This document shows, piece by piece, positions 91-24,983 of a DNA stretch of 64,000 nucleotides (within the stretch, counting starts at the first letter, position 1; the number at the start of each line of letters is the position of its first letter). The notes under the pieces were generated by a model that searched no databases, had not been told where the DNA came from, and saw nothing but the letters and a program-made list of their open reading frames with translations. The DNA is from Myxococcota bacterium (GTDB lineage: Bacteria > Myxococcota > Myxococcia > Myxococcales > Myxococcaceae): the NCBI GenBank assembly GCA_052034585.1, contig JBPOIJ010000034.1:19797-83796 (forward strand), written 5' to 3'. The position numbers and the translations under genes were made by a program.

Positions 91-1122
91 GTGAAGACGC
101 CCCGACTCAGCGTGGTCATCGCGACGTGGAACCGGCTCCAGCTGTTGGGAGAGCTCCTCGACGCGCTCGGCCACCAGACGCTCCCAGCCGACGATTTCGA
201 AGTGGTGGTGGTCGACGACGGCTCGAAGGTGCCGGTCGCGCCCGAGCTCGCCAAACGAAAGGACCGCTTCGCGCTCCGCGTCTTCACCCAAGCGAACGCC
301 GGAGCCGCCGCCGCCCGTCACGCCGGCGTGCTCGAGGCGAAGGCGCCCATCATCGTCATCACCGACGACGACATGCTGGTGCCGCCGGAGTTCCTCTCCG
401 AGCACCTCAAGGCCCACGACGCCGGCTACACGCTCGTGCTCGGGCACATCGACAACGAGCCCGGCCTCGACGACAAGCCGTTGTTCGAGCGCTTCCACGC
501 CGAGCAACTCGCGCGCTTCGTCGCCCGCTACAGCCGGGAACCGACGGCGGTGCGCGGAGTGATGGTCTGCACCGGCAACGTCTCCTTCCGCCGCGACGAC
601 TACCTCAAGGTGGGCGGCTTCGACCGGTCGCTCGATCGCTCCGAGGACCGTGAGCTCGGCGTTCGGCTCCAGAAGGCCGGCGCGCGGCTGTACTTCGCGA
701 AGGACGCGCGCACCATCAACCGCAGCGACCACGTCGACCTGAACCTGTGGATGACGCGCAACTTCCGCTACGGCATCTACGACAGCCGCATTCATCAGAA
801 GCACCCCGACCGGCTCGACGCCGATCCCTGGCACTTCTTGTTCCTGGTGAACCCGGCCTCGCGCGCCTTGTTGCTGCTCAGCGCGAGCGCGCCGACGGTG
901 GGCAAGGTGCTCTCGCGTGCCGCGTATTCCGTCGCGGAGAAGTTGGACGAGCGCCGGCAGCTGCATCCACTTCTCGGCAAGGTGGCCATCGCGGGCGCGA
1001 CCTTGAGCTACGGACTCGAGTACTTCCGCGGCGTGCGTGAAGAAGCGGGCTCACTGCCGAAGACCTGGCTCGACTTCGCCCGGCACGCGGTGGCGCAAGC
1101 GCGCCGAAAGGGACAACCGTGA
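91..1122 (+). CDS. GT2-family glycosyltransferase
   Basis: 343-aa ORF with GTG start. RLSVVIATWNR...FEVVVVDDGS and ITDDD motifs are classic GT-A/GT2 signatures. GTGA stop/start overlap with the next ORF. Confidence 0.85.
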   Translation: MKTPRLSVVIATWNRLQLLGELLDALGHQTLPADDFEVVVVDDGSKVPVAPELAKRKDRFALRVFTQANAGAAAARHAGVLEAKAPIIVITDDDMLVPPEFLSEHLKAHDAGYTLVLGHIDNEPGLDDKPLFERFHAEQLARFVARYSREPTAVRGVMVCTGNVSFRRDDYLKVGGFDRSLDRSEDRELGVRLQKAGARLYFAKDARTINRSDHVDLNLWMTRNFRYGIYDSRIHQKHPDRLDADPWHFLFLVNPASRALLLLSASAPTVGKVLSRAAYSVAEKLDERRQLHPLLGKVAIAGATLSYGLEYFRGVREEAGSLPKTWLDFARHAVAQARRKGQP

Positions 1123-1979
1123 AGGTCTGGGCTCCGGGCGACGCGCTGCCGGGCGACGAGACGCCTTCGTACCTCGCCCATCAAGGCGCGCAGCTGTACC
1201 TCGTGCATCATCGCGCCGCGGCGAAGCGCCCTCGAGCGACGGTGATTCTCGCCGGGCCGATGACGCTCGAGCGCGCGCACGGCTACCTCACCTGGGTACG
1301 GCTCGCCCGAAACCTCGCGGTGAACGGCTACGACGTGCTGCGCTTCGACTACCGCGGCGTCGGCGAGAGCACTGGAGCGTTTCGTGAGCAGTCCTTCGAC
1401 ACCTGGCTGGCGGATCTCGGCCGGGTGATCAGCCACGCGAAGACGCTCGGGCCAAAGCGCGTCGTCTGTCTGGGCTTGCGGCTGGGCGCGCTGCTCGCGA
1501 GGCCGTACTTCGAAGACGGTACGCTCGACGGGCTCATCGCCTGGGAGCCGCCGCAGACCGCGCGCGCGATGATGATGGACATGCTCCGGCGCAAGCTCGC
1601 CGCCGACTACATGGAGTTCCCCGACGCCCCCCGGAAGGTCCGCGACGACTACGTGAAGGACTTCGAGCGCGGCGCCGAGGTGGAGGTCGAGGGCTACCCG
1701 TGGACGCCGAAGCTGTGGCGGTCGGCCGACGCGTTCGCCTTCGCGGAGCCGGAGCGCATCGGCGGCGAGTGGCTCTCCGTCTTCCTCGACGGCCGCGCGG
1801 AGGACAAGCTGCCGGCCGCGAAGCGGAACCACTACGGCGCCTTCAAGGTTCCGAAGCCGCCGTTCTGGCTGCAGAGCACCCACCTCATCGCCGACCTGCG
1901 CGAGCCGTTCACCTTCACCTTCGAGCGGCTCCACCAGTGGACGAACGCCTGGAGCGTCACCGATGGAGGTGACCAATGA
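1119..1979 (+). CDS. alpha/beta-hydrolase-fold protein with GLRLG elbow (resembles exosortase-A-system 'hydrolase 2' family, from memory)
   Basis: 286 aa. LRFDYRGVGESTG is typical of the alpha/beta-hydrolase fold. The nucleophile-elbow position reads CLGLRLGALLA, with Arg where Ser is expected. ATGA overlap with the next ORF. Confidence 0.7.
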   Translation: MKVWAPGDALPGDETPSYLAHQGAQLYLVHHRAAAKRPRATVILAGPMTLERAHGYLTWVRLARNLAVNGYDVLRFDYRGVGESTGAFREQSFDTWLADLGRVISHAKTLGPKRVVCLGLRLGALLARPYFEDGTLDGLIAWEPPQTARAMMMDMLRRKLAADYMEFPDAPRKVRDDYVKDFERGAEVEVEGYPWTPKLWRSADAFAFAEPERIGGEWLSVFLDGRAEDKLPAAKRNHYGAFKVPKPPFWLQSTHLIADLREPFTFTFERLHQWTNAWSVTDGGDQ

Positions 1980-2971
1980 GTTCGCGCGAGCTCGACGTGC
2001 TCGACCTGCCCTCGGGGCGCTGCGTGGGCACGATTCATCGGCCGGCCACCCGCCGCAGCGACGTCGGGCTGTTGTGGGTGAACTTCGGCTACGTGCCGCG
2101 AGACGGCCACGGAGGCCTCGCCAGTCAGGCCAGTGACGCCTTGGCGGACGACGGCGTGCTCTGCTTTCGCTTCGATCTCCCCGGGCTCGGTGACGCGCCC
2201 GGCCCGCTGCCGAAGGTGACCCACGACTTCTTCCCGGTGGTGACGGGCGGCTCCTTCACCGCGGTGACGGTGGAGCTGGTGAATCGCCTCTGTGAACGCG
2301 AAGGCCTCTCCGGACTCGTGGTCGCTGGCCTGTGCGGCGGCGCGGTGAACGCCATCTTCACTGGAGACGCGCAGAAGGCGCGGGTGAAGGGCCTCTTGCT
2401 GCTCGAGCCCGAGCTCTACGTCACCGAACCGAAGGCGGCCGATGGCACGGTGAAGCCGATGCGGCTGCGCGCGTGGCTGCGGGAGCAACTCCCGAGTCAG
2501 AAGAACGTCGCCACCTCGCTGCTCGATCGCGCGCTCTCGACTCGGTTGCCGATGGAAGAGTCGGTGAAGGCGGCGGTGCTGCGCGTCGTGCCGAAGCAGG
2601 CCACCAACTACTGGGGGTGGATGCGGCTGCTCACCGCCGAGGGAAAGTACGCGCGCTTCGTGCCGATTCCGCGCAAGGCCCTCCTCGACTTCGTGATGTC
2701 GCGCTCGGGGCTGCCCGACGTCACCAACCTCCCGCTCGCCGCGGCGTGGAAGAGCTGGCTCGAAGAAGGCCGGCCAGCGCTCGTCATCACCGCGAAGGGC
2801 AAGCTGCGCGAGCTCTTCTTCGATCGCATCAACGCCGGCATCCAGGCGCCTTCGACCGGGCCGCGGTACCAGCACGTTCGGCTCGCGGGCACGAACCACA
2901 TCTTCACCACCGGCGGCGCCATCGCCACCGTCACCAAGCACATCGAAGGCAACTGGAAGCTCTTCGGCTGA
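1976..2971 (+). CDS. alpha/beta-hydrolase-fold protein with GLCGG elbow (resembles exosortase-A-system 'hydrolase 1' family, from memory)
   Basis: 331 aa. FRFDLPGLGDAPG followed by the elbow VVAGLCGGAVNA, with Cys at the nucleophile position. Translationally coupled to the previous ORF. Confidence 0.7.
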   Translation: MSSRELDVLDLPSGRCVGTIHRPATRRSDVGLLWVNFGYVPRDGHGGLASQASDALADDGVLCFRFDLPGLGDAPGPLPKVTHDFFPVVTGGSFTAVTVELVNRLCEREGLSGLVVAGLCGGAVNAIFTGDAQKARVKGLLLLEPELYVTEPKAADGTVKPMRLRAWLREQLPSQKNVATSLLDRALSTRLPMEESVKAAVLRVVPKQATNYWGWMRLLTAEGKYARFVPIPRKALLDFVMSRSGLPDVTNLPLAAAWKSWLEEGRPALVITAKGKLRELFFDRINAGIQAPSTGPRYQHVRLAGTNHIFTTGGAIATVTKHIEGNWKLFG

Positions 2972-2974
2972 GGG

Positions 2975-5019: not shown

Positions 5020-5026
5020 GACGCCC

Positions 5027-10319: not shown

Positions 10320-10456
10320 GGGCGTGATGTATGCGACCGGCCCCGACGCTCCCTGACAGCTGGAAAAGAGAACTCTCAGAATTGCGTCACCGCCGAGCGA
10401 CAGCTCGCGACGTTCCTGTTTCCCTTCGAGCGGGGCAGTTCGGGTAAGGGGCGGCC

Positions 10457-12088: not shown

Positions 12089-12182
12089 GGTGATCATTCG
12101 CAAGCGTGTCACCCCGACACGGTCGCTGAAATCGCGCGGGGGCGGCTGGTGCGCAGGTCCCTCGTCGCTCTATGTCGCGCGC

Positions 12183-13598: not shown

Positions 13599-13630
13599 TC
13601 GTTCAGCGCCTCTGGTTTCGAGGAGTCTCG

Positions 13631-14128
13631 ATGGCTCGCAGTCGAAAATGCCCTGACGAAGCCGCCGCCCAGTTTCCAGTCGGCACTCAGCGGCTCGGCA
13701 ACGACGGCCGGCTGTGGACGGTGACGCTCGGGAAGCACGGCCTTCGGTGGACGTATGGGCGACGCCGAAATCGCGCGCGCGCCAACACCAACCGGGCTTC
13801 GTCACCTCGCGCCCGCCGCCCGCGACCGAGTCACCAGGCGCTCGCGCTCGAGTGGGTTCGCCTCCACCCACGCGGGCTGATGACGCTCGTGCGCGACGAC
13901 GGGCTCGCGACGGTCCGCGCGCGTGCGCAGCTCCTCTCGCTCGTGCGCACCTTTCGTGACGGCTGGGAGGCCCTCACGAGCCGCAATCAAGATCTCTCCG
14001 AAGAACGGCTCGCCGAGGAGTCCGATGCGCAGCTGCGCCGGCACCTCAGCGAGTACTCGAGTGAGTCGATGCGCGCGCTGCTCGCCGAACGCCTCGCCCA
14101 GCTGCTGGTTCGCGCCACGAGGCGGTAG
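13631..14128 (+). CDS. hypothetical basic protein (165 aa)
   Basis: ATG preceded by AGGAG at 13621-13625. Coding-like GC3. No recognisable domain. Confidence 0.4.
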   Translation: MARSRKCPDEAAAQFPVGTQRLGNDGRLWTVTLGKHGLRWTYGRRRNRARANTNRASSPRARRPRPSHQALALEWVRLHPRGLMTLVRDDGLATVRARAQLLSLVRTFRDGWEALTSRNQDLSEERLAEESDAQLRRHLSEYSSESMRALLAERLAQLLVRATRR

Positions 14129-14138
14129 CGAATCGGAA

Positions 14139-16058
14139 TCAATCAGGGTCGCAGGGACCGTCGCAGGTCTGCGCGATGGTGCCGTCGCGGAAGAACTGGT
14201 CGAGCTGCCGAAGCACGGGGACGCGAACCCGCACGCCTTCGTGCACCGGCGTCGACATCGCGGGGAAGTCGGCCCGCCGATAGAAAGCGTCGGGGTCGCC
14301 CAGCTTGAAGTCGTGAATCTGGAGGCCGCTCGTCGCCGGAAAGTCCGTCTGCTCGAAGCCGTAGGGCACCACCGGCGTCGGCCGCAACACGGGCAGCCCG
14401 ATGAGGCGCGCGTGCTGCCAGCTCCCCAAGTTCGGAACGGCCGCGTCCATCAACCCGACCTGCATGAGCACCCGCTTGTCGGGGTTGCCGGGCAGGGGCT
14501 TCGCGAGCAGGTGCACTGCGTAGGTGGCGGGGTCGACGCGATCGAGCGGCCGCTGGAGCATCGCCAACAACCGCTGCACCTCGAGCGGCTCGTCGACGCT
14601 GAAGGCGAGGAACTCGAAGAGCGTCTTGAACGCCTCGGCGCGCATCATCATCGTGGTGAGTCCACAGCCTCCGACCTCGAGCGCGATTCGCTGCGTCGTC
14701 GGGTTGAGCGCCGCCATCGTCCCTCCGAGGATGTGGCCCTGGCTGATGCCGATGAAGGCCTCGGCCTTCCCGGTGACGAACGGCTCGCCCGAGGAGCGTT
14801 GGAACGCAGCGTCGCTCCCGAAGCTCTCGACCGCCCGAGTCACCACCAACCAGTTCGCCATCGCCTGGTGCACCCGATCGGTGAAGTGGGTCGCCTGGCT
14901 CAGCCGGTTCGTGAGCGCGTCGCCCACCACCGCGACGTCGGAGAAGTGCATGCCCCACCACTCGACGCCCACCATCGTGCGCCGGGTCTGAGCCGCGATG
15001 CCGCGTGCGCTCGAACTCTCGAGCTCTCCCAAGGTGCCGAAGGAGCCGTGCCCATAGAGCAACGACGGTGAGGGCCCCGCCGCGTCGAGCACCGTCTTGG
15101 GCACGATGGCGACGAAGGGAATCTCGACCGTTCCGTCCTCCTTCACCTGCCCGTCGGGGTCACGGAGCAAGGTGCACCCGGCGAGCGCCTCGTTCGAGCA
15201 GAACCTCGGGCCCGTCACCGTGCCTTTGATCAGCCTCGCGGTGTCTGGATAGGGCGCCTCGTCGAAGGAGCGAACGGTGACGTGCGGTGGGTGCGCGTCG
15301 AGCCAGGCAAGGGTGAGCGCTCGAACGCGAAAGAGATCTCTCGTCGCCCACTCGTGGCTGCCGGTGGTGAACTCCCAGGCGAGCTGGAGCTTCGAGCGCT
15401 CGATGCCCATCGCACGAACGGCCGGCATGATTCGTTGCTCGAACGCGTCGCGGAGTCGATCGAACGCGGGATCGTTGGCGGTCAGCCCGTCGCGGAGCCG
15501 GCGAAACCCCTCCGGCGCAGGCGCGAGCGCACCACTCGTCTGCTTGGCGCCGTGAACGAGCACCACGTAGCGGCGGCGATCCTCGAGGCCAGCGAACGCG
15601 TGGAGCACGATGGCCTGTCGCGTCTTGTCCACCGCGCGGGGATCGAGATCGGCGAAGTGCGCGACCGGCTTCAGCGTCTCCGCGTCGACGAGCACGGTGT
15701 TCGAGGTGTCCTTCGAGAGGCTCGGCTCGCCTCCATCCTCGAGGCGCACGAAGCCCTCGGCCGAGAGCTCGACGCCGAGCGTCGCGACGATGGTGGGCAC
15801 GGTGGAGAAGCCGTCGATGGGCACCTCGCTGGTGACGTCGAAGCGCTTGCCGTCCTTCGTGCGCGGCGCGACGTCGGAGGGAATGGTGACTCGAAACCCG
15901 CTCGGCTGCTTCTCGTCCACCACGCGGAAGAAGTCCGACGGGTAGGGGAGAATGCAGTCGGCGCCGGCGAGGAGCGGCTGACACCCACGCGGCAGCTCGA
16001 GCGGCTTCGGCGGAGGCGCGCAGCCCAACCCGAGGAAGATGATGAGAACTCGTCGCAC
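14139..16058 (-). CDS. secreted lipoprotein, putative alpha/beta serine hydrolase
   Basis: 639 aa. Lipobox LGLGC. GISQG (GxSxG) elbow in the C-terminal half and LLYGHGSFG upstream of it. Confidence 0.75.
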   Translation of the reverse strand: MRRVLIIFLGLGCAPPPKPLELPRGCQPLLAGADCILPYPSDFFRVVDEKQPSGFRVTIPSDVAPRTKDGKRFDVTSEVPIDGFSTVPTIVATLGVELSAEGFVRLEDGGEPSLSKDTSNTVLVDAETLKPVAHFADLDPRAVDKTRQAIVLHAFAGLEDRRRYVVLVHGAKQTSGALAPAPEGFRRLRDGLTANDPAFDRLRDAFEQRIMPAVRAMGIERSKLQLAWEFTTGSHEWATRDLFRVRALTLAWLDAHPPHVTVRSFDEAPYPDTARLIKGTVTGPRFCSNEALAGCTLLRDPDGQVKEDGTVEIPFVAIVPKTVLDAAGPSPSLLYGHGSFGTLGELESSSARGIAAQTRRTMVGVEWWGMHFSDVAVVGDALTNRLSQATHFTDRVHQAMANWLVVTRAVESFGSDAAFQRSSGEPFVTGKAEAFIGISQGHILGGTMAALNPTTQRIALEVGGCGLTTMMMRAEAFKTLFEFLAFSVDEPLEVQRLLAMLQRPLDRVDPATYAVHLLAKPLPGNPDKRVLMQVGLMDAAVPNLGSWQHARLIGLPVLRPTPVVPYGFEQTDFPATSGLQIHDFKLGDPDAFYRRADFPAMSTPVHEGVRVRVPVLRQLDQFFRDGTIAQTCDGPCDPD

Positions 16059-16139
16059 CCAGCACTTCTACGCCCGAACGGCGCCTCGCGAAGAGCGGAG
16101 CGCCCCGGTGTCACCGAGCGGTGACCAAGGCTCGGCTTC

Positions 16140-18158
16140 TCAGAGCTTGACGACGACGGTCTTGAACGGCGGCCGCTTCGTCGACGGCGCTTCCTTGATG
16201 AACTGCTGGTGCACCAGCTGCGCCGAGAGAATGCCCACCACCGCCATGTTGTCGGTGTTGGAGAACTGCTCGTCGTTCGAGCGCGTCAGGCACTTCTTCC
16301 AGAGCTGGCCGACCGGGCCCGGCGCGAAGAGCCCCGAGTCCTTCAGCGCCTGCTCGCTCATCAGCTCGTCGACGTAGGCCGGGCGCCGCTCACCGATGAA
16401 GCTCAGCGCGTCGGGCGCGCGGTACGGCTGCTTGGGCCGCTCGAGGATCTCCTTGGTGACGAGGTCCTTCGCGACGCGCTTGAGCACGTGCTTCTCGTCG
16501 AGCACCTTCAGCTTGTACGAAGCGGGCAGGCTGTTCGCGAGCGCCATCACCTCGCGGTCGAGGAACGGAAAGCGCCCTTCGACGCTGTTTCCCATCAGCA
16601 TGCGGTCGCCCTGCGACGAGAGCAGGTAACCCGAGAGCAGCGTGCGCACCTCGAGGTACTGGTCCTGGGCGAGGAAGTTCCACGAGCCGAACTCTGGCGG
16701 CAGCGTCGCGAGGAAGCGGGCGCGCGCGTCGAAGCCCTGGAGCGCCGCCGCGACGTCGGGCGCGAAGAGCCGCTTGAGCGCGTGGGTGCCGCTCCAGCGT
16801 GGCTCGTGGGAAAAGCCCGGCTCCTTCGCGCGCTCGAGGCCGCGGCCAAAGAACTGGCGAGTGAGCGCCTGCTGCGAGACCGGCGAGCGGGTGAGGTACG
16901 GATAGAGCCGCTCGAGCAACCGCGCCCGCCACTTCGACTGTGGTTGCCGTGCCCAGAAGCGCCGCACGCGCGCCTCGCGGAACAAGTCGTACCCGGCGAG
17001 CATCTCGTCCGAGCCCTCGCCCGTCAGCACCACCTTGATGCCGGAGTCGTGCACCAACTTCGAGAGCAGGAACAACGGCGCCGGCGCGGTGCGGAGGATC
17101 GGCCGCTCGGTGTGACGAATCACCTTGGGGAAGACCTCGGCGATGTCTTGCCGGGAGACGACGACCTCGGCGTGCTCGGTGCCCAGCCGCTGCACCATGG
17201 CGCGTTGATAGGGCGTCTCGTCGTACTCGGCGTCGGCGAAGCGCAGCGAGAAGGTCTTGAAGCCCGACGGCTTCGCCCGGCTGGCGAGCGCGGCGACGAC
17301 CGAGCTGTCGAGGCCTCCCGAGAGGTAGCTGCCCACCGGAACGTCGGCGCGCACCATGCGCAGCCGCGTCGCGTTCTCGAGCGCAGTGGAGAGCGCCTCG
17401 GTGGCCTCGGCGAGCGAACCGGAGAAGCGGTGCTGAGCGCCGAGCACGTCTGGCGCCGATCGAGTCTCGCTGCTCGGGTACATCGGCCGCCAGAAGGCGA
17501 CGTCGTGCACGAAGCGCCCGTGCTGCCACACCGCGACGTGGCCCGGCTCGAGCTCACGAACGCCCTTGAAGATCGACTGCGGCGGCACCACCGTCCAGAA
17601 GGTGAAGGTCTCGTCGAGCCCGACCGGGTCGAGCTGCCGCGAGAAGCTCGGTGCGCCAGCGAAGAGCGCCTTCACCTCGCTCGCGAAGTAGAGCCGGCCC
17701 GCGTGCTCCATCACGAAGAGCGGCCGCACGCCGACACGATCGCGCGCGAGCACGAAGGTGTGCGTCTTGGAGTCCCACAGCGCGACGGCCCACTGCCCGT
17801 TCATTCGCTCGAAGGCCGCCTCGCCCCACGCTTCCCAGGCGTGGACGATGACCTCGGTGTCGCTCTTGGTGCGGAACCGGTGGCCGAGCTGCTCCAGCTC
17901 GGCGCGCAGCTCGACGTAGTTGAAGATCTCTCCGTTGAACGAGATCCACAGGGTGCCGTCCTCGTTCGAGAGCGGCTGCTGCCCGGTGGAGAGGTCGATG
18001 ATGGAGAGCCGTGAGTGCGCCAGCCCGGCGAAGCGATCGAGATAGAGCCCGAACTCGTCGGGGCCGCGGTGCTCGAGCGCACCGGCCATCACCTCGAGCG
18101 CGTCACGAGACGGAGGCGCCGAGGCGTCGAGGTTGATGATGCCCGCGATGCCGCACAC
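16140..18158 (-). CDS. asnB: asparagine synthase (glutamine-hydrolysing) family amidotransferase
   Basis: 672 aa. N-terminal MCGIAG Ntn-glutaminase start. SGGLDSS PP-loop in the synthetase domain. Confidence 0.95.
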   Translation of the reverse strand: MCGIAGIINLDASAPPSRDALEVMAGALEHRGPDEFGLYLDRFAGLAHSRLSIIDLSTGQQPLSNEDGTLWISFNGEIFNYVELRAELEQLGHRFRTKSDTEVIVHAWEAWGEAAFERMNGQWAVALWDSKTHTFVLARDRVGVRPLFVMEHAGRLYFASEVKALFAGAPSFSRQLDPVGLDETFTFWTVVPPQSIFKGVRELEPGHVAVWQHGRFVHDVAFWRPMYPSSETRSAPDVLGAQHRFSGSLAEATEALSTALENATRLRMVRADVPVGSYLSGGLDSSVVAALASRAKPSGFKTFSLRFADAEYDETPYQRAMVQRLGTEHAEVVVSRQDIAEVFPKVIRHTERPILRTAPAPLFLLSKLVHDSGIKVVLTGEGSDEMLAGYDLFREARVRRFWARQPQSKWRARLLERLYPYLTRSPVSQQALTRQFFGRGLERAKEPGFSHEPRWSGTHALKRLFAPDVAAALQGFDARARFLATLPPEFGSWNFLAQDQYLEVRTLLSGYLLSSQGDRMLMGNSVEGRFPFLDREVMALANSLPASYKLKVLDEKHVLKRVAKDLVTKEILERPKQPYRAPDALSFIGERRPAYVDELMSEQALKDSGLFAPGPVGQLWKKCLTRSNDEQFSNTDNMAVVGILSAQLVHQQFIKEAPSTKRPPFKTVVVKL

Positions 18159-18164
18159 GGGAAC

Positions 18165-18410
18165 TCAGCCCTTCTTCTTCTGCACGAAGGCGACGATGTG
18201 GTTCACCGCGTCGAGGTTCTCGGGGACCATCTCGGCGTCGTCGACGGTGACGCCGAACTCGCTCTCGATGAAGTTGATGACCTCGAGCACGCCGGTCGAG
18301 TCCACGATGCCGGCGTCGAGCAGCGACGCCTCGTCCTTCAGGCTCGAGGCATCGGCGACGTAGAAGTTCGAGACGATGAACTGCCGAACCTTTTCCTTGA
18401 TGTCTGACAT
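18165..18410 (-). CDS. acyl/aminoacyl carrier protein
   Basis: 81 aa. LLDAGIVDSTGVLEVINFIESEF contains the DS(T/L) phosphopantetheine-attachment motif. 6 nt upstream of asnB. Confidence 0.85.
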   Translation of the reverse strand: MSDIKEKVRQFIVSNFYVADASSLKDEASLLDAGIVDSTGVLEVINFIESEFGVTVDDAEMVPENLDAVNHIVAFVQKKKG

Positions 18411-18422
18411 TGAAATGCTCCG

Positions 18423-19106
18423 TTATTTCTTCCGCGCCACGACGACTCGCGGCGCACCTTCGTGATTGTTGGCAAACCTGACGTCTTCGTAGGCCTTCGC
18501 GCGCTGGAAGAGCGCCGACATCTGCCGCTCCTGCCCCAGCCCGAACTCGAAGAGGAGATACCCGCGCGGCTTGAGCAGGGCGAGCGCTTCTTTGATGACC
18601 CGCTGGTGAATCGACAGCCCATACGGCCCGCCGTCGAAGGCCTCTCGCGGCTCGTGGTCGAGCAGGGTCGCGCTGTCGGCGGCCAGGCGCCCAGTCGAGA
18701 TGTAGGGCGGGTTGCAGACGATGACGTCGATGGACTCGGCGGCGACGTGCGGCGCGAGCGGCGCGAACAGATCGCCCTGGTGCACGCTGACCCGCTCCGA
18801 GAGCCCGAGGTGGGTCACGTTGCGCGACGCCAACTCGAAGCAGCCATCGGTGAGATCGCTCGCGAAGACCCGCGAGGTCGGCACGTGATGCGCGATGGCG
18901 CAGGCGAGGTTCCCCGAGCCGCAGCACACGTCGATGACGACCGGCCGCTCACCGGCCTGGCGAACGAGCGCGACGGCTTCCTTCGCGAGCAGCTCGGTCT
19001 CGCGCCGCGGCACGAGGGCGCCCTTCGAGACGAGCAGCGTCAGCCCCATGAAGCTGTAGGTGCCGCGCTCGTAGACGACCTGCACGTCCGGCTGTTCTTC
19101 GCTCAT
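18423..19106 (-). CDS. HemK/PrmC-like SAM-dependent methyltransferase (NPPY class)
   Basis: Start placed at MSEEQPDVQ (ATGA overlap with the ligase stop). VIDVCCGSGNL SAM motif I and VCNPPY motif IV. The track ORF extends to 19214. Confidence 0.8.
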   Translation of the reverse strand: MSEEQPDVQVVYERGTYSFMGLTLLVSKGALVPRRETELLAKEAVALVRQAGERPVVIDVCCGSGNLACAIAHHVPTSRVFASDLTDGCFELASRNVTHLGLSERVSVHQGDLFAPLAPHVAAESIDVIVCNPPYISTGRLAADSATLLDHEPREAFDGGPYGLSIHQRVIKEALALLKPRGYLLFEFGLGQERQMSALFQRAKAYEDVRFANNHEGAPRVVVARKK

Positions 19107-20734
19107 CGCTCGGCGAGCCCCGTCTTCTTGATCTTCCCCGTCGTCGTCTTCGGCAGCTCGTCGAGGAAGGCGACGTGCTTGGGCACCATGAAGTTCTCGA
19201 GCCGCTTCTGGCACTCCTTCATGATGTCCTTGTCCGTCATGGTGACGCCCTTCTCGAGCACCACGAAGGCCTTCACCGCCTGGCCGAGGATCTCGTCGGG
19301 CACGCCCACCACCGCGACCTCCTTCACCCCGGGGATGTTGGTGATGGCGCCTTCGACTTCCTTCGGGGCGACCTTCTCACCGCGCGACTTGATGATGTCG
19401 TCGGAGCGGCCCACGAAATAGAGGTAGCCCTCTTCGTCGAGGCGGCAGAGGTCGCCGGTGTGCAGCACGAACTCGCCCGGCACCGGCCCTGGCTTGAGCT
19501 TCTCGGCCGTCGCTTCCGGCTTCTCCCAGTAGCCCTTCATCACCGTGGCGCCGCGAATGACGAGCTGCCCCGTCACGTTCGGGCCGACCTTCTGGCCGTT
19601 CTCGTCCACGATCCACAGCTCGGTGTCGGGGATCGCGAGGCCGACGCTGGTCGGCTTCCGGTCGATGTCCTTCGGAGGCAGATATGTACAGCGTTTGCAC
19701 TCCGTCAAACCATACATCGAATAGATGCGCGCCGTCGGGAAGAGCTCGCGCAACATGGTGATGTGTTTGACCGGCAGCGCGGCGGCCGTGTTGGTGACGA
19801 AGGCGATCGACGAGAGGTCGAAGTCCTTCAGGTTCTTCATCTCGGCGAGCACCGCGTAGATGGTGGGCACGCCGGGAAAGCCGCTCACCTTCTCTTCCGC
19901 CATCACCTTCAGCACTTGGGCGGGGAAGGCGAAGCTGCGCTCGAGCACCAGCCGGCCGCCGACGCGGAACGTCATGATGAGCTGGTACAGCCCATAGTCG
20001 AACGCGAGCGGGAGCACCCCGAGCACCACGTCGTGCTCCTTCATCTCCAGGTACGTCGAGATGCTGGTGCCCGCGGTGAGCATGTTGCGATGGGTCAACA
20101 TCACGCCCTTCGGGTCGCCGGTGCTGCCCGAGGTGTAGATGATGGCGGCGAGGTCGTTGTCGATGCAGCGGCGGCCCGGCGGGCCGTGCTTCACGTGGGC
20201 GAAGTTGGCGCCCTTCTCGGCGGCAGCGGCTCCCCGGCCGATCGCGCTCGACCAGGCCTCGGGGTTCTTCACCGCGCCGAGCTTGGCCGCGTCGAAGGCG
20301 CCGCTGACGATGGTGCGCACGAGGTGCGGCGTCTTCGGCGCGCATTCGTTGAACACGGCCCCGAGGTGCATGTCGCTGATGAGCACCTTCGCGCGGCAAT
20401 CATTCAAGTAATAGGTGAGCTTGTCGGCCTTGGTGAGCGGGTTGATGATGCTGACGATCGCGTTGGCCTTGAGCACCGCCCAGAAGCTGACGACGGTCTC
20501 GACGGTGTTGTCGGCGAAGATGACGACGCGGTCGCTCCGCTCGACGCCCGACTCGACCAGCGCGTGAGCCAGCGCGTTGGCCTGACGGTCGATCTCTCCG
20601 TAGGTGACTCGAGTGCCCTTGCACACGAGCGCGACCTTCTCGGGCAACCGGGCGGCGGTCGTCTCGAGGAAGTCGTGGAGCAACGGGGTGGCGAGGCGGT
20701 GGAGCGCAGGGGGCGGAGCGAACGTCGTGGTCAT
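19103..20734 (-). CDS. AMP-dependent synthetase/ligase (acyl- or aminoacyl-adenylating)
   Basis: 543 aa. IIYTSGSTGDPKGV (A3), YGLTE, TGDL and KTTTGKIKK (A10) core motifs. Confidence 0.9.
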   Translation of the reverse strand: MTTTFAPPPALHRLATPLLHDFLETTAARLPEKVALVCKGTRVTYGEIDRQANALAHALVESGVERSDRVVIFADNTVETVVSFWAVLKANAIVSIINPLTKADKLTYYLNDCRAKVLISDMHLGAVFNECAPKTPHLVRTIVSGAFDAAKLGAVKNPEAWSSAIGRGAAAAEKGANFAHVKHGPPGRRCIDNDLAAIIYTSGSTGDPKGVMLTHRNMLTAGTSISTYLEMKEHDVVLGVLPLAFDYGLYQLIMTFRVGGRLVLERSFAFPAQVLKVMAEEKVSGFPGVPTIYAVLAEMKNLKDFDLSSIAFVTNTAAALPVKHITMLRELFPTARIYSMYGLTECKRCTYLPPKDIDRKPTSVGLAIPDTELWIVDENGQKVGPNVTGQLVIRGATVMKGYWEKPEATAEKLKPGPVPGEFVLHTGDLCRLDEEGYLYFVGRSDDIIKSRGEKVAPKEVEGAITNIPGVKEVAVVGVPDEILGQAVKAFVVLEKGVTMTDKDIMKECQKRLENFMVPKHVAFLDELPKTTTGKIKKTGLAER

Positions 20735-20759
20735 GCGGGTTCCTCGAGGAGAGCGAGCG

Positions 20760-21758
20760 TCAGAGCTCGTGCGTTTCGTGGAAGATGGGTTCGACCAACA
20801 GCGGCGGCAGGTGGCCGTAGCGGGTCGCGCGGCGCTTGGAGGCGATGTCCTTGAAGACGCGCTCCACCTGGTCGGGCTTGAGGCCGATGGTGGCAGCGAC
20901 CTCCGCGGCCGGCACCTGGTGGTTCACCGCCCAGAGGCAGAGGTCCATGCGGTCGTACGGCAACGCGAAGTAGAACTCTTCCTGCGTCTGCGGCAGCGAG
21001 TAGGTGTCGGTGGTGGGCGGGCGGGAGCGGATCTCGGCGGGCACTCCGAGCGTCTCGGCGAGCGCGTAGACCTGCGTCTTGTACAGATGTGCAATCGGCT
21101 TGATGTCGGCGGTGCCGTCACCCTGCTTCACGAAGAAGCCCTGGTCGTACTCGAGGCGGTTCGGCGTGCCCACCACGGCGTAGTTGAGCCGGTCGGCGTG
21201 GTAGTACTCGACCATCTTTCGCACGCGCTGCTTGTAGTTCGTCGCCGCCACCAACTGCAGATACGAGGTGAGCGGCATGCGGGCGGTCTCGAGCTCGCCC
21301 GTCGGAGACTGCACGGTGAGCGAGAACACGTTGAGCCGATCGGAGTCGACGAGCGACGGCAGGGTGATCTTCGACTTCCAGCCCTTGCCGTACTTGGGGA
21401 ACACCTCGCGAATCGCCTCGTCCTGGCGCGCGTAGCAGCCGGCGCCTTCGAGCGCCGACGCGATGGACTCGGTGATGGCCTGAATGCCCAGCGACTTGGC
21501 GAGCAGCTGGCCGAGCTCGAGCGACTCCGAGGCCGAGTGGTGTTCGGGCATGAAGACCCCGAAGACCTTGTCGGGCCCGAGCGCCTTGACCGCGAGCGCC
21601 GCGCAGACCGACGAGTCGATTCCCCCCGACAGGCCGATCACCACGCCCCGCTTCTTCAGCGTTCCCATCACGCTCGCCTTGAACCAGGCGGTGATGCGGG
21701 CGACCTCGGCGGGGCGATCGAGGTTCAGCACGTCTTTCGAGAAGGGCATCACGCCCAT
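20760..21758 (-). CDS. NadE-family PP-loop ATP pyrophosphatase (NAD synthase-like)
   Basis: VIGLSGGIDSSVCAALA PP-loop and GTPNRLEYDQGFFVKQGDGTADIKPIAHLYKTQVY NadE core. Start uncertain: ATG 21758, ATG 21749 or GTG 21785. Confidence 0.8.
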   Translation of the reverse strand: MGVMPFSKDVLNLDRPAEVARITAWFKASVMGTLKKRGVVIGLSGGIDSSVCAALAVKALGPDKVFGVFMPEHHSASESLELGQLLAKSLGIQAITESIASALEGAGCYARQDEAIREVFPKYGKGWKSKITLPSLVDSDRLNVFSLTVQSPTGELETARMPLTSYLQLVAATNYKQRVRKMVEYYHADRLNYAVVGTPNRLEYDQGFFVKQGDGTADIKPIAHLYKTQVYALAETLGVPAEIRSRPPTTDTYSLPQTQEEFYFALPYDRMDLCLWAVNHQVPAAEVAATIGLKPDQVERVFKDIASKRRATRYGHLPPLLVEPIFHETHEL

Positions 21759-21825
21759 GTTCGCCCGAGTGCCCAACCAACGCACGAGGTTTCACTGACG
21801 GCGGACGACCTGCTCAGCGACCGCC

Positions 21826-22734
21826 TCAGCGCACCTCGGCGATGGCCTTCTCGCTCAGCTGCCACACCGTCTCGACGAGCTGCGCGTCTTCCCCCGCCTT
21901 GCTCGGCGGCGTGACGGCGCAATCGGCGAGGTACGCCCCCGACTGCCCTGTCAGCGACGGCGAGGTGGCTGCGAAGACCGAGGTCGCCGCGCCCTGAGGC
22001 ACGCTCTTCATGAAGAGCCCGCCGACCGCGCGGAAGATGACGCCCTGGAGCCCCATGCTCCGGCTCAGGTTCGTGTTGATGACGCCGGGGTGAATCGAGA
22101 ACGCCTCCACGCCCTTCGGCAGCCGCTTCGCGAGGCCCTTCACGAAGAGCACGTTGGCGAGCTTCGAATCTCCATAGGCGTCGAACGGCGAGTACGCGGT
22201 CGGCTTCTTCTCGAGCGCCGCGATGAGCCGTCGACCGTCACCGCGGGCGTGGAGCGTGCTCGAGAGGGTCACGATGCGCGCGGGCGCAGACCTCTCGAGC
22301 ACCGGCAACAACGCGGTGGTGAGCGCGAAGTGCCCCAGGTGGTTGGTGCCGACCTGCAGCTCGAAGCCCTGCGAGGTCTGCCCCTGCGGCGTCGCCATGA
22401 TGCCCGCGTTGTTCACCAGCAGCTGGAGCGGCTTGCCCGAGTCCACCCAGCGCTTCGCGAAGGCGCGCACCGAGGCGAGGTCACCCAAGTCGAGCGCCTC
22501 GACGCTCAGCCTCCCGGCGGTGGGTGGGAGCTGGGTTCGAAGCTGGGCGGCGACCTCTTCGCCGGACTTCACGTTGCGCACCGCGAGGGTGACGTCGGCT
22601 CCAGCGAGGGCGAGCACGCGGGCGGTCTCGATGCCGATGCCGGAAGACGCGCCGGTGACGATGGCCGTCTTGCCAGTGAGCGACTGGCCCTGCAGCGCCT
22701 GCTCTGCGGTGGTCTTCTTTCCGAGGGAGGTCAT
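21826..22734 (-). CDS. short-chain dehydrogenase/reductase
   Basis: 302 aa from MTSLGKK. TGASSGIG cofactor motif, NNAG, and YxxxK (YGDSK). The track ORF of 670 aa is over-extended upstream. Confidence 0.9.
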   Translation of the reverse strand: MTSLGKKTTAEQALQGQSLTGKTAIVTGASSGIGIETARVLALAGADVTLAVRNVKSGEEVAAQLRTQLPPTAGRLSVEALDLGDLASVRAFAKRWVDSGKPLQLLVNNAGIMATPQGQTSQGFELQVGTNHLGHFALTTALLPVLERSAPARIVTLSSTLHARGDGRRLIAALEKKPTAYSPFDAYGDSKLANVLFVKGLAKRLPKGVEAFSIHPGVINTNLSRSMGLQGVIFRAVGGLFMKSVPQGAATSVFAATSPSLTGQSGAYLADCAVTPPSKAGEDAQLVETVWQLSEKAIAEVR

Positions 22735-24904: not shown

Positions 24905-24983
24905 GAGGCCGTCTTGCTCCTCTCGGGGCCGTCGCCGCAAGGGTCGTTTCAAAATCAGGCGAGGGTGCCCCCACTCAGAGGGC

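What the first reader, a model, noticed from the sequence alone, without database searches (positions are those of the whole stretch)
14139..21785. Carrier-protein cassette: NadE-like enzyme, adenylating ligase, NPPY methyltransferase, ACP, AsnB and secreted hydrolase
Six minus-strand genes have short junctions: 25 nt, an ATGA overlap, 12 nt, 6 nt and 81 nt. A ligase plus an 81-aa carrier protein implies a thioester-tethered acyl or aminoacyl intermediate. Two ATP-dependent amidating enzymes (NadE-family and AsnB-family) and an amino-group-type methyltransferase accompany them. Ligase, ACP and AsnB also occur in exosortase-A/PEP-CTERM EPS loci (from memory). There the partner is a PLP decarboxylase, not a NadE-like enzyme plus methyltransferase. 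The product may be an amidated, N-methylated small acyl or aminoacyl decoration for a glycan or lipid.
Basis: partly seen in the sequence, partly recalled or inferred. Interest (0 to 1): 0.7.

Follow-up and report, generated by a model that had tools for sequence, protein, structure and literature searches.

The report
Carrier-protein amidation cassette in EPS locus
Five of the six genes form a conserved cassette, found in more than ten bacterial phyla inside slime-polysaccharide gene clusters, that probably builds an amidated, N-methylated aspartate-like group on a carrier protein; its "NAD synthase" and "release-factor methyltransferase" labels are probably wrong.

Summary
The six minus-strand genes exist exactly as described, and every junction length was verified. 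Five of them form a real cassette: a NadE-like PP-loop enzyme, an adenylating ligase, a HemK-like NPPY methyltransferase, an 81-aa carrier protein and an AsnB-like amidotransferase. The sixth gene is a lipoprotein esterase. It lies in a ~13-kb block that is absent from a syntenic relative and is never co-conserved with the others.

The window carries a complete myxobacterial eps (Wzx/Wzy) locus. The cassette sits in that locus's variable middle region.

In 80 species genomes from more than ten phyla, the NadE-like gene (57-92% identical) is almost always next to a ligase, a carrier protein and an AsnB, in varying order. The methyltransferase occurs in about a quarter of the loci. Neighbouring genes are exopolysaccharide and exosortase (XrtA/XrtW) genes.

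The ligase pocket matches VinN, which tethers aspartate-type substrates to a carrier protein through the side-chain carboxyl.

Best model: an Asp-like unit is tethered to the carrier, its free carboxylate is amidated, the amide is N-methylated, and the product is transferred to the polysaccharide. I found no literature on this cassette.

It is a new variant of the uncharacterised exosortase-A ligase/ACP/decarboxylase/amidotransferase set. The chemistry is inferred, not shown.

The parts
20760..21785 (-). NadE-like PP-loop ATP pyrophosphatase (PRK00876 subfamily). It is the constant member of the cassette. The likely true start is the ATG at 21749.
   Evidence: It scores 522.7 bits on NF002048, above the cutoff of 313. 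The motifs SGGIDS and GFFVKQGDGTAD are conserved in 83 of 83 homologues. The AF2 model matches the NH3-dependent NadE fold (TM 0.8 normalised to target, 17-27% identity) and carries an extra three-stranded beta insertion. All 45 loci with at least 7 kb on both sides have at least one of ligase, AsnB or ACP within 8 kb.
19103..20734 (-). VinN-like adenylating ligase, a predicted aminoacyl-carrier-protein synthetase for an Asp-type substrate.
   Evidence: It has the AMP-binding and AMP-binding_C domains, and its best NCBIfam hit is TIGR03098 at 475.6 bits, below the cutoff. For the pocket segment, VinN (3WV4/3WVN) is the best PDB match at E 2e-20, against 4e-9 for the next hit. The alignment has a single one-residue gap outside the pocket motifs. 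D246, Y247, T316, K347 and R348 align with VinN D230, F231, S299, K330 and R331. The motifs FDYGLY, TNTAAALP and TECKR are conserved in about 40 loci.
18423..19106 (-). HemK/PrmC-like N-methyltransferase. It has the catalytic domain only, with NPPY at residues 132-135. It is an accessory tailoring enzyme.
   Evidence: It scores 156 bits on TIGR00536 (cutoff 115.5) but 184.6 on the PrmC equivalog TIGR03534, below the cutoff of 199.1. Its alignment to HemK structures begins at about HemK residue 70-80, so the release-factor-binding N-terminal domain is absent. NPPY is conserved in 22 of 22 homologues. All three distant homologues examined sit beside NadE-like, AsnB and ligase genes.
18165..18410 (-). 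Stand-alone 81-aa carrier protein with the phosphopantetheine attachment site at Ser38 (GIVDSTG).
   Evidence: It matches Pfam PP-binding. Its best PDB relatives are type II peptidyl/aminoacyl carrier proteins, including DltC, PltL and PigG, rather than fatty-acid ACPs. The DS motif is conserved in 64 of 64 homologues.
16140..18158 (-). AsnB-family glutamine-hydrolysing amidotransferase, with the Cys2 nucleophile and an SGGLDS PP-loop.
   Evidence: It scores 514 bits on TIGR01536 and 427.5 on TIGR03108, below the cutoff of 817. Its best PDB hits are the hydroxyamidotransferase 7YLZ and AsnB 1CT9. It is directly adjacent to the NadE-like gene in most other phyla. It is absent from the four-gene loci L003 and L084.
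1119..2971 (+). Two tandem alpha/beta hydrolases (1119-1979 and 1976-2971). They are candidate acyl-transfer or thioesterase partners. In this window a ~13-kb insertion separates them from the cassette.
   Evidence: Their best NCBIfam hits are the exosortase-A-associated hydrolase 2 (TIGR03101, 84 bits) and hydrolase 1 (TIGR03100, 42 bits), both below cutoff. The pair lies next to the cassette in L001, L004 and L006, immediately after AsnB in L001 and upstream of the NadE-like gene in L006. It is also present in L015 and L028.

Best explanation
The unit is a five-gene cassette that makes a decoration on a carrier protein, embedded in the variable middle of a myxobacterial Wzx/Wzy exopolysaccharide (eps) locus. 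It is a lineage-specific version of a core found in more than ten phyla: NadE-like enzyme, AsnB-like enzyme, ligase and carrier protein.

Proposed mechanism:
1. The VinN-like ligase adenylates an aspartate-type amino-dicarboxylate at its side-chain carboxyl. It loads the substrate as a thioester on the phosphopantetheine of Ser38 of the 81-aa carrier protein. The alpha-amino and alpha-carboxylate groups stay free; Lys347 and Arg348 hold the carboxylate.
2. The NadE-like PP-loop enzyme adenylates that free carboxylate and replaces AMP with ammonia. This gives an isoasparagine-type carboxamide.
3. The AsnB-like enzyme either supplies glutamine-derived ammonia or performs a second amidation, on the same cargo or on a uronic acid of the repeat unit.
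4. The truncated HemK-like enzyme N-methylates the carboxamide, the same chemistry PrmC performs on a glutamine side chain.
5. The finished group is passed to the polysaccharide or its lipid-linked precursor. The transfer is done by accessory enzymes that differ between lineages. Here these are the hydr1/hydr2-like alpha/beta hydrolases. Elsewhere they are EpsC/CysE-like hexapeptide transferases and GDSL-like proteins.

Shown: gene content, motifs, co-conservation and the EPS/exosortase context. Inferred: the substrate, the order of steps and the acceptor.
For: Co-conservation:
- A genome scan anchored on the NadE-like protein returned 80 loci from Myxococcota, Alpha-, Beta- and Gammaproteobacteria, Planctomycetota, Acidobacteriota, Nitrospirota, Bacteroidota, Chlorobi, Ignavibacteriota, Chloroflexota, Gemmatimonadota and Armatimonadota. 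At least 586 stretches encoding a relative were found.
- Across the 83 loci, ORF clustering found a ligase in 71, an AsnB in 66, a carrier protein in 64 and the methyltransferase in 22.
- Among the 45 loci with at least 7 kb on both sides, 41 have the ligase, 40 AsnB and 34 the carrier protein. All three are present in 32, and no locus lacks all three.
- Gene order differs between phyla, which argues for selection on linkage.
- Reverse anchors agree. All three distant methyltransferase homologues examined sit beside the cassette. Of 15 well-flanked metagenome loci found with the class-I ligase, 14 have the carrier protein, 10 AsnB and 9 the NadE-like gene.

Context:
- The window encodes EpsB, Wzy, EpsZ, Wzx, EpsY, EpsX, EpsW, EpsV, EpsU and EpsD. 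It is syntenic with L001.
- The nearest neighbours in 32 diverse loci are dominated by sugar acetyltransferases, the XrtA priming glycosyltransferase, EpsC-like transferases, exosortase XrtW and sugar aminotransferases.
- XrtW lies directly after the NadE-like gene in L056, and an XrtA-system deacetylase is in the same locus.

Chemistry:
- The VinN pocket match is given. VinN loads 3-methylaspartate or aspartate on the carrier protein VinL before a tailoring enzyme acts on the tethered substrate (PMC11284099).
- The arginine equivalent to VinN Arg331 is kept in nearly all the cassette-associated ligases aligned.
- The carrier protein resembles aminoacyl carriers.
- Catalytic motifs are conserved in every component.
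- In L146 a WbuX-like PP-loop N-acetyl-sugar amidotransferase lies next to the ligase in a locus that lacks the NadE-like gene.
Against: - No step has biochemical support.
- A side-chain-tethered aspartate has only one free carboxylate, so two amidating enzymes are unexplained.
- The NadE-like protein keeps every canonical NadE motif. It is more conserved (57-92%) than its ligase (31-91%). This could mean that it acts on a constant substrate that is not the ligase's cargo.
- Ligases of class II (YYVYGLS) and class III (SHTYGLF) lack the amino-binding Asp, so the cargo is not the same everywhere.
- The four-gene loci L003 and L084 lack AsnB and sit among housekeeping genes, an MFS transporter and sigma factors, not EPS genes.
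- No dedicated transferase is universally conserved.
- No exosortase was found among the window ORFs that were scanned.
Confidence: 0.55

Rival explanations
1. The overall purpose is the same (EPS decoration) but the labour is divided differently. The ligase, carrier protein and methyltransferase deliver an aminoacyl group. The NadE-like and AsnB-like enzymes act on sugar-nucleotide or lipid-linked sugar intermediates. They would make uronamides or acetamidino groups, as WbpS-type AsnB homologues and WbuX/WbpG-type PP-loop enzymes are thought to do (my own knowledge).
For: The NadE-like and AsnB genes are the most tightly linked pair, with gaps of 3-60 nt in most phyla. The NadE-like protein is far more conserved than the ligase, although the ligase pockets fall into three classes. 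L146 carries a WbuX-like sugar amidotransferase next to the ligase and lacks the NadE-like gene. Sugar aminotransferases and UDP-sugar dehydrogenases are frequent neighbours.
Against: L003 and L084 keep the NadE-like gene, ligase, methyltransferase and carrier protein with no sugar genes nearby. The NadE-like gene is linked to a carrier protein even where the ligase or AsnB is missing, as in L043. The NadE-like protein is not related to the WbuX family beyond the PP-loop.
Confidence: 0.2
2. The cassette makes a diffusible small molecule or a lipid head group, such as an N-methyl-isoasparagine-containing metabolite or aminolipid, rather than a polysaccharide substituent. Its position in EPS loci would reflect co-regulation only.
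For: L003 and L084 lie outside EPS loci, next to an MFS transporter. The closest characterised ligase/carrier pair, VinN/VinL, feeds a polyketide. Weak carrier-protein hits include the ornithine-lipid and cispentacin carrier proteins.
Against: No condensation, ketosynthase or acyltransferase domain typical of small-molecule assembly is conserved beside the cassette. The context is EPS or exosortase genes across many phyla.
Confidence: 0.15
3. The NadE-like gene is a genuine NAD+ synthetase and its linkage to the other genes is incidental or regulatory.
For: It passes the NCBIfam NadE thresholds and has the NadE fold and active-site motifs.
Against: Linkage to the ligase, carrier protein and AsnB persists across more than ten phyla despite rearranged gene order. 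Identity to any solved NadE is only 17-27%, and there is a family-specific insertion. No cultured Myxococcus, Corallococcus, Stigmatella or Cystobacter genome appears among the 80 best hits, although their homologues would be expected to rank at the top. The gene is therefore dispensable for NAD supply in this family.
Confidence: 0.05
4. The HemK-like enzyme is a protein glutamine methyltransferase. It would act on release factors, on the carrier protein or on a sorted PEP-CTERM protein, not on the small cargo.
For: It has HemK-family membership and the NPPY motif. Databases call it a release-factor methyltransferase.
Against: It falls below the PrmC equivalog cutoff, it lacks the N-terminal substrate-recognition domain, and it occurs only beside this cassette. 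L087 even carries two tandem copies.
Confidence: 0.05

Closest known systems
Exosortase-A (XrtA/PEP-CTERM) associated set: ligase TIGR03098, carrier protein, PLP decarboxylase TIGR03099, hydrolases TIGR03100 and TIGR03101, amidotransferase TIGR03108 (function uncharacterised)
   Same: These models are the best NCBIfam hits for the ligase and both hydrolases, and the second-best hit for the AsnB. The architecture is the same: ligase, stand-alone carrier protein and AsnB inside EPS loci. Exosortases and XrtA-system genes flank the cassette in other phyla.
   Different: All scores are below the curated cutoffs. No PLP decarboxylase was found. A NadE-like PP-loop enzyme is the constant member instead, and a HemK-like methyltransferase is added in about a quarter of loci. 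Here the cassette sits in a Wzx/Wzy myxobacterial eps locus, and no exosortase was seen among the scanned ORFs.
VinN/VinL/VinO starter-unit pathway of vicenistatin (macrolactam polyketides)
   Same: The ligase pocket determinants and the length of the beta13-beta14 loop match VinN. The ligase pairs with a stand-alone carrier protein. The logic is also the same: the free alpha-carboxylate of a side-chain-tethered aspartate-type unit is modified while on the carrier.
   Different: The carboxylate is predicted to be amidated by PP-loop or AsnB enzymes rather than removed by a PLP decarboxylase. There is no second ligase, acyltransferase or PKS. The context is polysaccharide synthesis, not polyketide synthesis.
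NH3-dependent NAD+ synthetase NadE
   Same: The fold, the SGGxDS PP-loop and the GFFxKxGDGxAD motif are shared, and the protein passes the TIGR00552 and NF002048 thresholds.
   Different: Identity to solved NadEs is only 17-27%. The protein has a conserved insertion of about 50 residues that forms a small beta sheet. It is always linked to the ligase, carrier protein and AsnB, and it is absent from cultured relatives.
PrmC/HemK release-factor N5-glutamine methyltransferase
   Same: It has the catalytic Rossmann domain and the NPPY motif, and the predicted chemistry is methylation of a carboxamide nitrogen.
   Different: It has no N-terminal release-factor-binding domain, it is below the PrmC equivalog cutoff, and its context is specific to the cassette.
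Dlt D-alanylation system (DltA ligase, DltC carrier, DltB, DltD)
   Same: A stand-alone adenylating ligase loads an amino acid on a small carrier protein to decorate an extracytoplasmic polymer. DltC is among the carrier protein's closest solved relatives. A GDSL-like protein follows the carrier protein in beta-proteobacterial loci; DltD has the same SGNH/GDSL fold (my own knowledge).
   Different: No MBOAT (DltB) homologue was found. The cargo is tailored by amidation and methylation before transfer. The predicted target is an EPS, not teichoic acid.
OxyD-type AsnB homologues that amidate carrier- or CoA-bound malonate to give the malonamyl starter of oxytetracycline (my own knowledge)
   Same: An AsnB-family amidotransferase acts on the free carboxylate of a thioester-tethered dicarboxylate.
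   Different: The relationship was not tested here, there is no PKS context, and this cassette has an additional PP-loop enzyme.

Membership tests
NAD+ synthetase (NadE; NF002048/PRK00876, TIGR00552) | HMM score above the curated cutoff | tested here: met
   It scores 522.7 bits on NF002048 (cutoff 313) and 158.8 bits on TIGR00552 (cutoff 63.65).
NAD+ synthetase (NadE; NF002048/PRK00876, TIGR00552) | PP-loop and NadE active-site motifs, and the NadE fold | tested here: met
   SGGIDS and GFFVKQGDGTAD are conserved in 83 of 83 homologues. The top Foldseek hits are NH3-dependent NadE structures, with TM 0.8 normalised to target.
NAD+ synthetase (NadE; NF002048/PRK00876, TIGR00552) | Housekeeping role: present in all NAD-prototrophic relatives and independent of a biosynthetic cassette | tested here: not met
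   The gene is always linked to a ligase, carrier protein or AsnB. No cultured Myxococcaceae or Archangiaceae isolate is among the 80 best genome hits. I could not check whether a second NadE exists in the same genomes.
NAD+ synthetase (NadE; NF002048/PRK00876, TIGR00552) | Amidation of nicotinic acid adenine dinucleotide | not testable with these tools
   This needs an enzyme assay or a complementation test.
Exosortase-A associated ligase/ACP/decarboxylase/hydrolase/amidotransferase set | Ligase reaches the TIGR03098 cutoff | tested here: not met
   It scores 475.6 bits against a cutoff of 592.35, although this is the top-ranked model.
Exosortase-A associated ligase/ACP/decarboxylase/hydrolase/amidotransferase set | Amidotransferase reaches the TIGR03108 cutoff | tested here: not met
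   It scores 427.5 bits against a cutoff of 816.9.
Exosortase-A associated ligase/ACP/decarboxylase/hydrolase/amidotransferase set | PLP-dependent decarboxylase (TIGR03099) in the unit | tested here: not met
   No decarboxylase was found among the window ORFs scanned. None was among the 25 most frequent families in the census of 133 neighbouring ORFs.
Exosortase-A associated ligase/ACP/decarboxylase/hydrolase/amidotransferase set | Paired hydrolase 1 and hydrolase 2 | tested here: inconclusive
   A tandem pair at 1119-2971 hits TIGR03101 (84 bits; cutoff 203) and TIGR03100 (42 bits; cutoff 168) as the best models. The pair is adjacent to the cassette in L001, L004 and L006.
Exosortase-A associated ligase/ACP/decarboxylase/hydrolase/amidotransferase set | Exosortase and PEP-CTERM system in the same locus | tested here: inconclusive
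   No exosortase was found among the scanned window ORFs. In other phyla XrtW, an exosortase-E-like protein, the XrtA deacetylase, the XrtA priming glycosyltransferase and the PEP-CTERM FemAB protein flank the cassette.
VinN-type aspartate/beta-amino-acid adenylating enzymes with a stand-alone carrier protein | Pocket determinants D230, F231, S299, K330 and R331, and the shortened beta13-beta14 loop | tested here: met
   D246, Y247, T316, K347 and R348 align with these residues. The motif 'TECKR' is identical and the alignment has no gap there. VinN is the best PDB match for the pocket segment, at E 2e-20.
VinN-type aspartate/beta-amino-acid adenylating enzymes with a stand-alone carrier protein | Adjacent stand-alone carrier protein | tested here: met
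   The 81-aa carrier protein lies two genes downstream. It is present in 14 of 15 well-flanked loci anchored on the ligase.
VinN-type aspartate/beta-amino-acid adenylating enzymes with a stand-alone carrier protein | VinO-type decarboxylase, second ligase, acyltransferase and PKS partners | tested here: not met
   None of these was found in the window or among the conserved neighbours.
PrmC/HemK release-factor glutamine methyltransferase | NPPY catalytic motif and HemK-family HMM | tested here: met
   NPPY is at residues 132-135 and is conserved in 22 of 22 homologues. TIGR00536 scores 156 bits (cutoff 115.5).
PrmC/HemK release-factor glutamine methyltransferase | PrmC equivalog score and the N-terminal release-factor-binding domain | tested here: not met
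   TIGR03534 scores 184.6 bits, below the cutoff of 199.1. Alignments to HemK structures start at about HemK residue 70-80, and the protein is only 227 aa.
Asparagine synthetase B (TIGR01536) | HMM cutoff, N-terminal Cys nucleophile and PP-loop | tested here: met
   It scores 514 bits (cutoff 267). MCGI is present in 60 of 67 homologues and SGGxDS in 66 of 67.
Asparagine synthetase B (TIGR01536) | Makes free asparagine from aspartate | not testable with these tools
Dlt D-alanylation system | DltB (MBOAT) and DltD partners | tested here: not met
   No MBOAT was found among the neighbours. Only a weak GDSL-like protein occurs, in 10 loci.

The most novel reading that the evidence does not exclude
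The entire PRK00876 'NAD(+) synthase' subfamily, found in hundreds of species across more than ten phyla, is not an NAD synthase. It would be the signature enzyme of an undescribed carrier-protein pathway. Together with an AsnB partner it would convert the free carboxylate of a side-chain-tethered aspartate-type unit into a carboxamide, or into an amidine. Where the truncated HemK enzyme is present, the product would also be N-methylated. This would create a new class of nitrogen-rich substituent on exosortase-linked and myxobacterial exopolysaccharides.
Probability: 0.4. Interest if true: 0.75.

Novelty: new variant of a known kind. Interest (0 to 1): 0.62.

Why it matters
- It would assign a function to a widespread gene set that automated annotation labels as NAD synthase, asparagine synthase, long-chain fatty-acid CoA ligase and release-factor methyltransferase. 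The NAD synthase and release-factor methyltransferase labels would then be corrected in thousands of genomes and MAGs.
- It gives a concrete, testable chemical hypothesis for the long-uncharacterised ligase/carrier-protein genes of exosortase (PEP-CTERM) EPS loci. By analogy with VinN/VinL/VinO, the classical XrtA version would make beta-alanyl-type units by decarboxylation. This version would make amidated ones.
- It predicts an unusual EPS substituent, an N-methyl-isoasparaginyl-type group, in myxobacteria. EPS there governs motility and development, and the middle of the eps locus is known to vary between species (PMC7484181).

Tried and rejected
- An exact-sequence look-up of the window ligase found nothing.
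- Nine literature searches found no description of the cassette or of PRK00876 in this context. Those on Myxococcus eps genes and VinN returned only background papers. The original PEP-CTERM paper does not mention these genes in its main text. The VinN structure paper is not held in the library.
- I rejected the OlsH/OlsI ornithine-lipid pathway. The carrier-protein score is 52 bits against a cutoff of 130, and that pathway uses a GH3-like enzyme.
- I rejected the sixth gene as a member of the cassette.
- The SDR directly upstream (21826-22698) and the MauG-like peroxidase (23783-25072) are not core members. The SDR occurs in 0 related loci. MauG occurs only in close relatives.
- No Rfam family was found in the window.
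- No promoter-like sites were found, and terminator-like sites were fewer than in shuffled sequence.
- The 81-nt gap after AsnB folds no better than shuffled sequence (z = -0.06), so no terminator can be claimed.
- The supplementary gene table for the M. xanthus eps locus could not be retrieved in searchable form.

Full report
OBSERVATION

The junctions are exactly as stated: 25 nt, an ATGA overlap, 12 nt, 6 nt and 81 nt.

HMM assignments:
- 20760-21785 is a NadE-like protein of the PRK00876 subfamily (NF002048, 522.7 bits; cutoff 313).
- 19103-20734 is an AMP-binding ligase. Its top NCBIfam model is the exosortase-A-associated ligase TIGR03098, at 475.6 bits, below the cutoff of 592.
- 18423-19106 is a HemK-family methyltransferase. 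It scores 184.6 bits on the PrmC equivalog, below the cutoff of 199.1.
- 18165-18410 is a carrier protein.
- 16140-18158 is an AsnB-family amidotransferase (TIGR01536, 514 bits). It scores 427.5 bits on the XrtA amidotransferase model TIGR03108, below the cutoff of 817.
- 14139-16058 has no family hit.

I modelled the 639-aa protein from 30 homologues. The model is confident (pLDDT 93). Its C-terminal half is an alpha/beta hydrolase closest to CE7 acetyl-xylan esterases. The protein has a lipobox and invariant residues Ser439, Asp538 and His606.

WHICH GENES BELONG TOGETHER

I anchored on the NadE-like protein. Its homologues are very conserved: the 120 listed hits are at least 68% identical, and the 8000 scored candidates all have E below 1e-10.

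Contexts of four homologues showed the following:
- NadE-ligase-methyltransferase-carrier protein-AsnB in a close relative (L001).
- NadE-AsnB-ligase-methyltransferase-carrier protein in others (L085, L086).
- A four-gene form without AsnB (L003, L084).

A scan of 185,579 species genomes returned at least 586 stretches encoding a relative. The 80 best loci come from more than ten phyla. I then ran tblastn with the six window proteins and an all-against-all ORF clustering. Across the 83 loci:
- The NadE-like gene is in 83, the ligase in 71, AsnB in 66, the carrier protein in 64 and the methyltransferase in 22.
- The esterase and the upstream SDR are in none.

Among the 45 loci with at least 7 kb on both sides:
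- 41 have the ligase, 40 have AsnB and 34 have a carrier-protein ORF of at least 70 aa.
- 32 have all three, and none lacks all three.

Gene order differs between lineages:
- NadE-AsnB-ligase-methyltransferase-carrier protein in Betaproteobacteria.
- NadE-carrier protein-ligase-AsnB in Sorangium.
- AsnB-carrier protein-ligase-NadE in Planctomycetota.

Linkage kept through rearrangement is the signature of selection for a functional unit.

Reverse anchors agree. The methyltransferase subfamily is labelled 'release factor glutamine methyltransferase' almost everywhere. It sits beside NadE-like, AsnB and ligase genes in all three distant contexts examined, and L087 has two tandem copies. I also scanned metagenome contigs with the class-I ligase. 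Of 15 loci with at least 5 kb on both sides, 14 have the carrier protein, 10 AsnB, 9 the NadE-like gene and 3 the methyltransferase.

The core is therefore the NadE-like enzyme, the ligase and the carrier protein, usually with AsnB. The methyltransferase is an accessory.

The esterase is not a member. Relative to the syntenic locus L001, window 2965-16139 is an inserted block. It carries:
- a histidine kinase (2975-4477);
- a response regulator (4330-5019);
- an AcrB/MFP/OEP efflux system (5027-10319);
- ORFs rich in Pro/Thr repeats;
- the esterase.

A 66%-identical esterase homologue lies in an unrelated neighbourhood.

CONTEXT

The window carries a complete myxobacterial Wzx/Wzy eps locus. 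The best NCBIfam models, mostly below the equivalog cutoffs, are:

| Protein | Coordinates |
|---|---|
| EpsB | 52542-54437 |
| Wzy | 49848-52370 |
| EpsZ | 48095-49477 |
| Wzx | 46460-47974 |
| EpsY | 40417-41010 |
| EpsX | 39212-40420 |
| EpsW | 38779-39186 |
| EpsV | 37283-38965 |
| EpsU | 36075-37340 |
| EpsD | 91-1122 |

The locus also has a WecG-type transferase, a deacetylase-like protein and two hexapeptide acyltransferases. The cassette lies between EpsU and EpsD. This is the region that Perez-Burgos et al. report as differing between Myxococcus species (PMC7484181).

Next to EpsD are two tandem alpha/beta hydrolases (1119-1979 and 1976-2971). Their best models are exosortase-A hydrolase 2 and hydrolase 1, both below cutoff. 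The pair lies next to the cassette in L001, L004 and L006, immediately after AsnB in L001 and upstream of the NadE-like gene in L006. It recurs in a Nitrosomonadales locus and an Acidobacteriota locus.

In other phyla the recurrent neighbours are:
- the XrtA-system priming glycosyltransferase and deacetylase;
- Wzz/GNVR and ParA-like chain-length proteins;
- GT4 glycosyltransferases;
- NeuD/PglB-type and EpsC/CysE-type hexapeptide transferases;
- a GDSL-like protein;
- sugar aminotransferases;
- sigma-54 response regulators.

Exosortase W directly follows the NadE-like gene in Ca. Manganitrophus (556 bits; cutoff 425). An exosortase-E-like gene precedes it in L017.

Ligase/carrier-protein loci that lack the NadE-like gene are still exosortase loci. 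L159 has XrtW and the PEP-CTERM FemAB protein. L126 has the XrtA deacetylase. L146 has a WbuX-like PP-loop N-acetyl-sugar amidotransferase next to the ligase.

The exceptions are L003 and L084. There the four-gene form lies among housekeeping genes, an MFS transporter, a sigma-54 activator and an ECF sigma factor.

WHAT THE PARTS LOOK LIKE

Ligase:
- Over its full length the best solved relatives are NRPS adenylation domains and stand-alone aminoacyl-carrier-protein synthetases.
- For the substrate-pocket segment, VinN is by far the best match, at E 2e-20 against 4e-9 for the next hit. The alignment has a single one-residue gap outside the pocket motifs.
- The residues that define VinN's recognition of 3-methylaspartate and aspartate as a beta-amino acid are D230, F231, S299, K330 and R331, together with a shortened beta13-beta14 loop (PMC11253843).
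- They correspond to D246, Y247, T316, K347 and R348 in the window ligase. The motif 'TECKR' is identical in the two proteins.
- VinN loads its substrate through the side-chain carboxyl on the stand-alone carrier protein VinL. A PLP decarboxylase, VinO, then removes the free alpha-carboxylate on the carrier (PMC11284099).
- That trio mirrors the exosortase-A set of ligase, carrier protein and decarboxylase.
- Among the ligases nearest the NadE-like gene in the related loci, about 40 share the class-I signature FDYGLY / TNTAAALP / TECKR. These include the ligases of the methyltransferase-containing loci.
- Two other classes lack the amino-binding Asp (YYVYGLS, and SHTYGLF in Sorangium). Nearly all keep the arginine equivalent to VinN Arg331, which suggests a distal carboxylate in every case.

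Carrier protein: the closest solved relatives are type II peptidyl/aminoacyl carriers, including DltC, PltL and PigG.

NadE-like protein:
- It keeps SGGIDS and GFFVKQGDGTAD in 83 of 83 homologues.
- It adopts the NH3-dependent NadE fold.
- It is only 17-27% identical to any solved NadE.
- It has a conserved extra beta-sheet insertion.

AsnB-like protein: it keeps the Cys2 glutaminase nucleophile and its own PP-loop.

Methyltransferase: it is the HemK catalytic domain with NPPY, without the N-terminal release-factor-binding domain.

MECHANISM

The mechanism is inferred. I think the ligase tethers an aspartate-type amino-dicarboxylate to the carrier protein through the side-chain carboxyl. The NadE-like enzyme adenylates and amidates the free alpha-carboxylate. 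The HemK-like enzyme methylates the new carboxamide nitrogen, as PrmC does on glutamine. The unit is then transferred to the EPS by lineage-specific hydrolase-fold or hexapeptide transferases.

The AsnB partner is the weak point, because a tethered aspartate offers only one carboxylate. AsnB may do one of three things:
- feed ammonia to the NadE-like enzyme;
- make the amide, which the PP-loop enzyme then converts further, for example to an amidine;
- amidate a uronic acid of the repeat unit.

The NadE-like protein is more conserved than the ligase, although the ligase pockets differ between loci. This is also unexplained. It keeps alive the rival view that the NadE-like and AsnB enzymes act on a constant sugar substrate.

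That the NadE-like gene is simply the housekeeping NAD synthase is unlikely. It is always in this cassette, and no cultured Myxococcaceae or Archangiaceae genome appears among the 80 best hits, where any homologue would be expected to rank. I could not check for a second NadE in the same genomes.

COMPARISON AND NOVELTY

The closest known system by membership is the uncharacterised exosortase-A ligase/carrier protein/decarboxylase/hydrolase/amidotransferase set. The window proteins fall below all its curated cutoffs, the decarboxylase is missing, and a NadE-like enzyme is the constant member instead.

The closest characterised mechanism is VinN/VinL/VinO. The Dlt system is a functional analogue for decorating an extracellular polymer through a carrier protein.

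Literature searches found no description of this cassette. NCBIfam release 20 has no specific model for its ligase, carrier protein, methyltransferase or AsnB. I therefore rate it a new variant of a known kind, of moderate to high interest. It is widespread and systematically mis-annotated, and it yields a concrete chemical prediction. No step has been demonstrated.

Noticed in passing
window 14139-16058 (-): A 639-aa lipoprotein with no Pfam or NCBIfam family. A confident AF2 model shows a C-terminal CE7-like alpha/beta-hydrolase domain and an N-terminal beta-rich domain. Ser439, Asp538 and His606 are invariant. About 300 homologues were found, and the named ones are all from Myxococcota; all are annotated as hypothetical proteins.
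   Followed up: yes
window 2975-10319 (-): A histidine kinase, an OmpR-type response regulator and an AcrB/MFP/OEP RND efflux operon lie inside the eps locus. They belong to a ~13-kb block (2965-16139) that is absent from the syntenic locus L001.
   Followed up: partly
window 10600-12620: Dense 15-54-nt tandem repeats occur here. Read on the minus strand they encode Pro/Thr-rich linkers within poorly defined ORFs (10874-12112 and 12420-13871) that have no family hits. A similar repeat is present in L004 (882-1244).
   Followed up: partly
window 23783-25072 (-); L001 7154-8194; L007; L087 end: A MauG/di-haem cytochrome c peroxidase-like gene lies a few kb from the cassette in the myxobacterial relatives. 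One also lies near the cassette in a gammaproteobacterial MAG. I do not know whether this is chance or a functional link.
   Followed up: no
window 33536-35628 (-) and 42135-44576 (-): Inside the eps locus there are a kinase-like protein with an FGE-sulfatase domain, a PhyH-like dioxygenase and an 813-aa protein with a TauD-like dioxygenase domain. These are possible further EPS tailoring enzymes.
   Followed up: no
L087 6102-7831: Two tandem HemK-like methyltransferases (279 and 276 aa) follow the ligase in a gammaproteobacterial MAG. This hints at double methylation in some lineages.
   Followed up: no
L146 9608-11877: In a locus without the NadE-like gene, a class-III aminotransferase (putrescine-aminotransferase-like) and a WbuX-like PP-loop N-acetyl-sugar amidotransferase directly follow the class-I ligase. 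This looks like a modular swap of the PP-loop enzyme.
   Followed up: partly
L063, L062, L054, L042, L080, L082 (Mesorhizobium), upstream of the NadE-like gene: A ~900-aa NRPS-like adenylation protein lies immediately upstream of the cassette, in addition to the class-I ligase. The methyltransferase is on the opposite strand downstream.
   Followed up: no
L036 and L043 (same Myxococcales MAG): This genome has two NadE-like copies. One is in a full cassette. The other is followed only by a carrier protein and an EpsC/CysE-like hexapeptide transferase.
   Followed up: no
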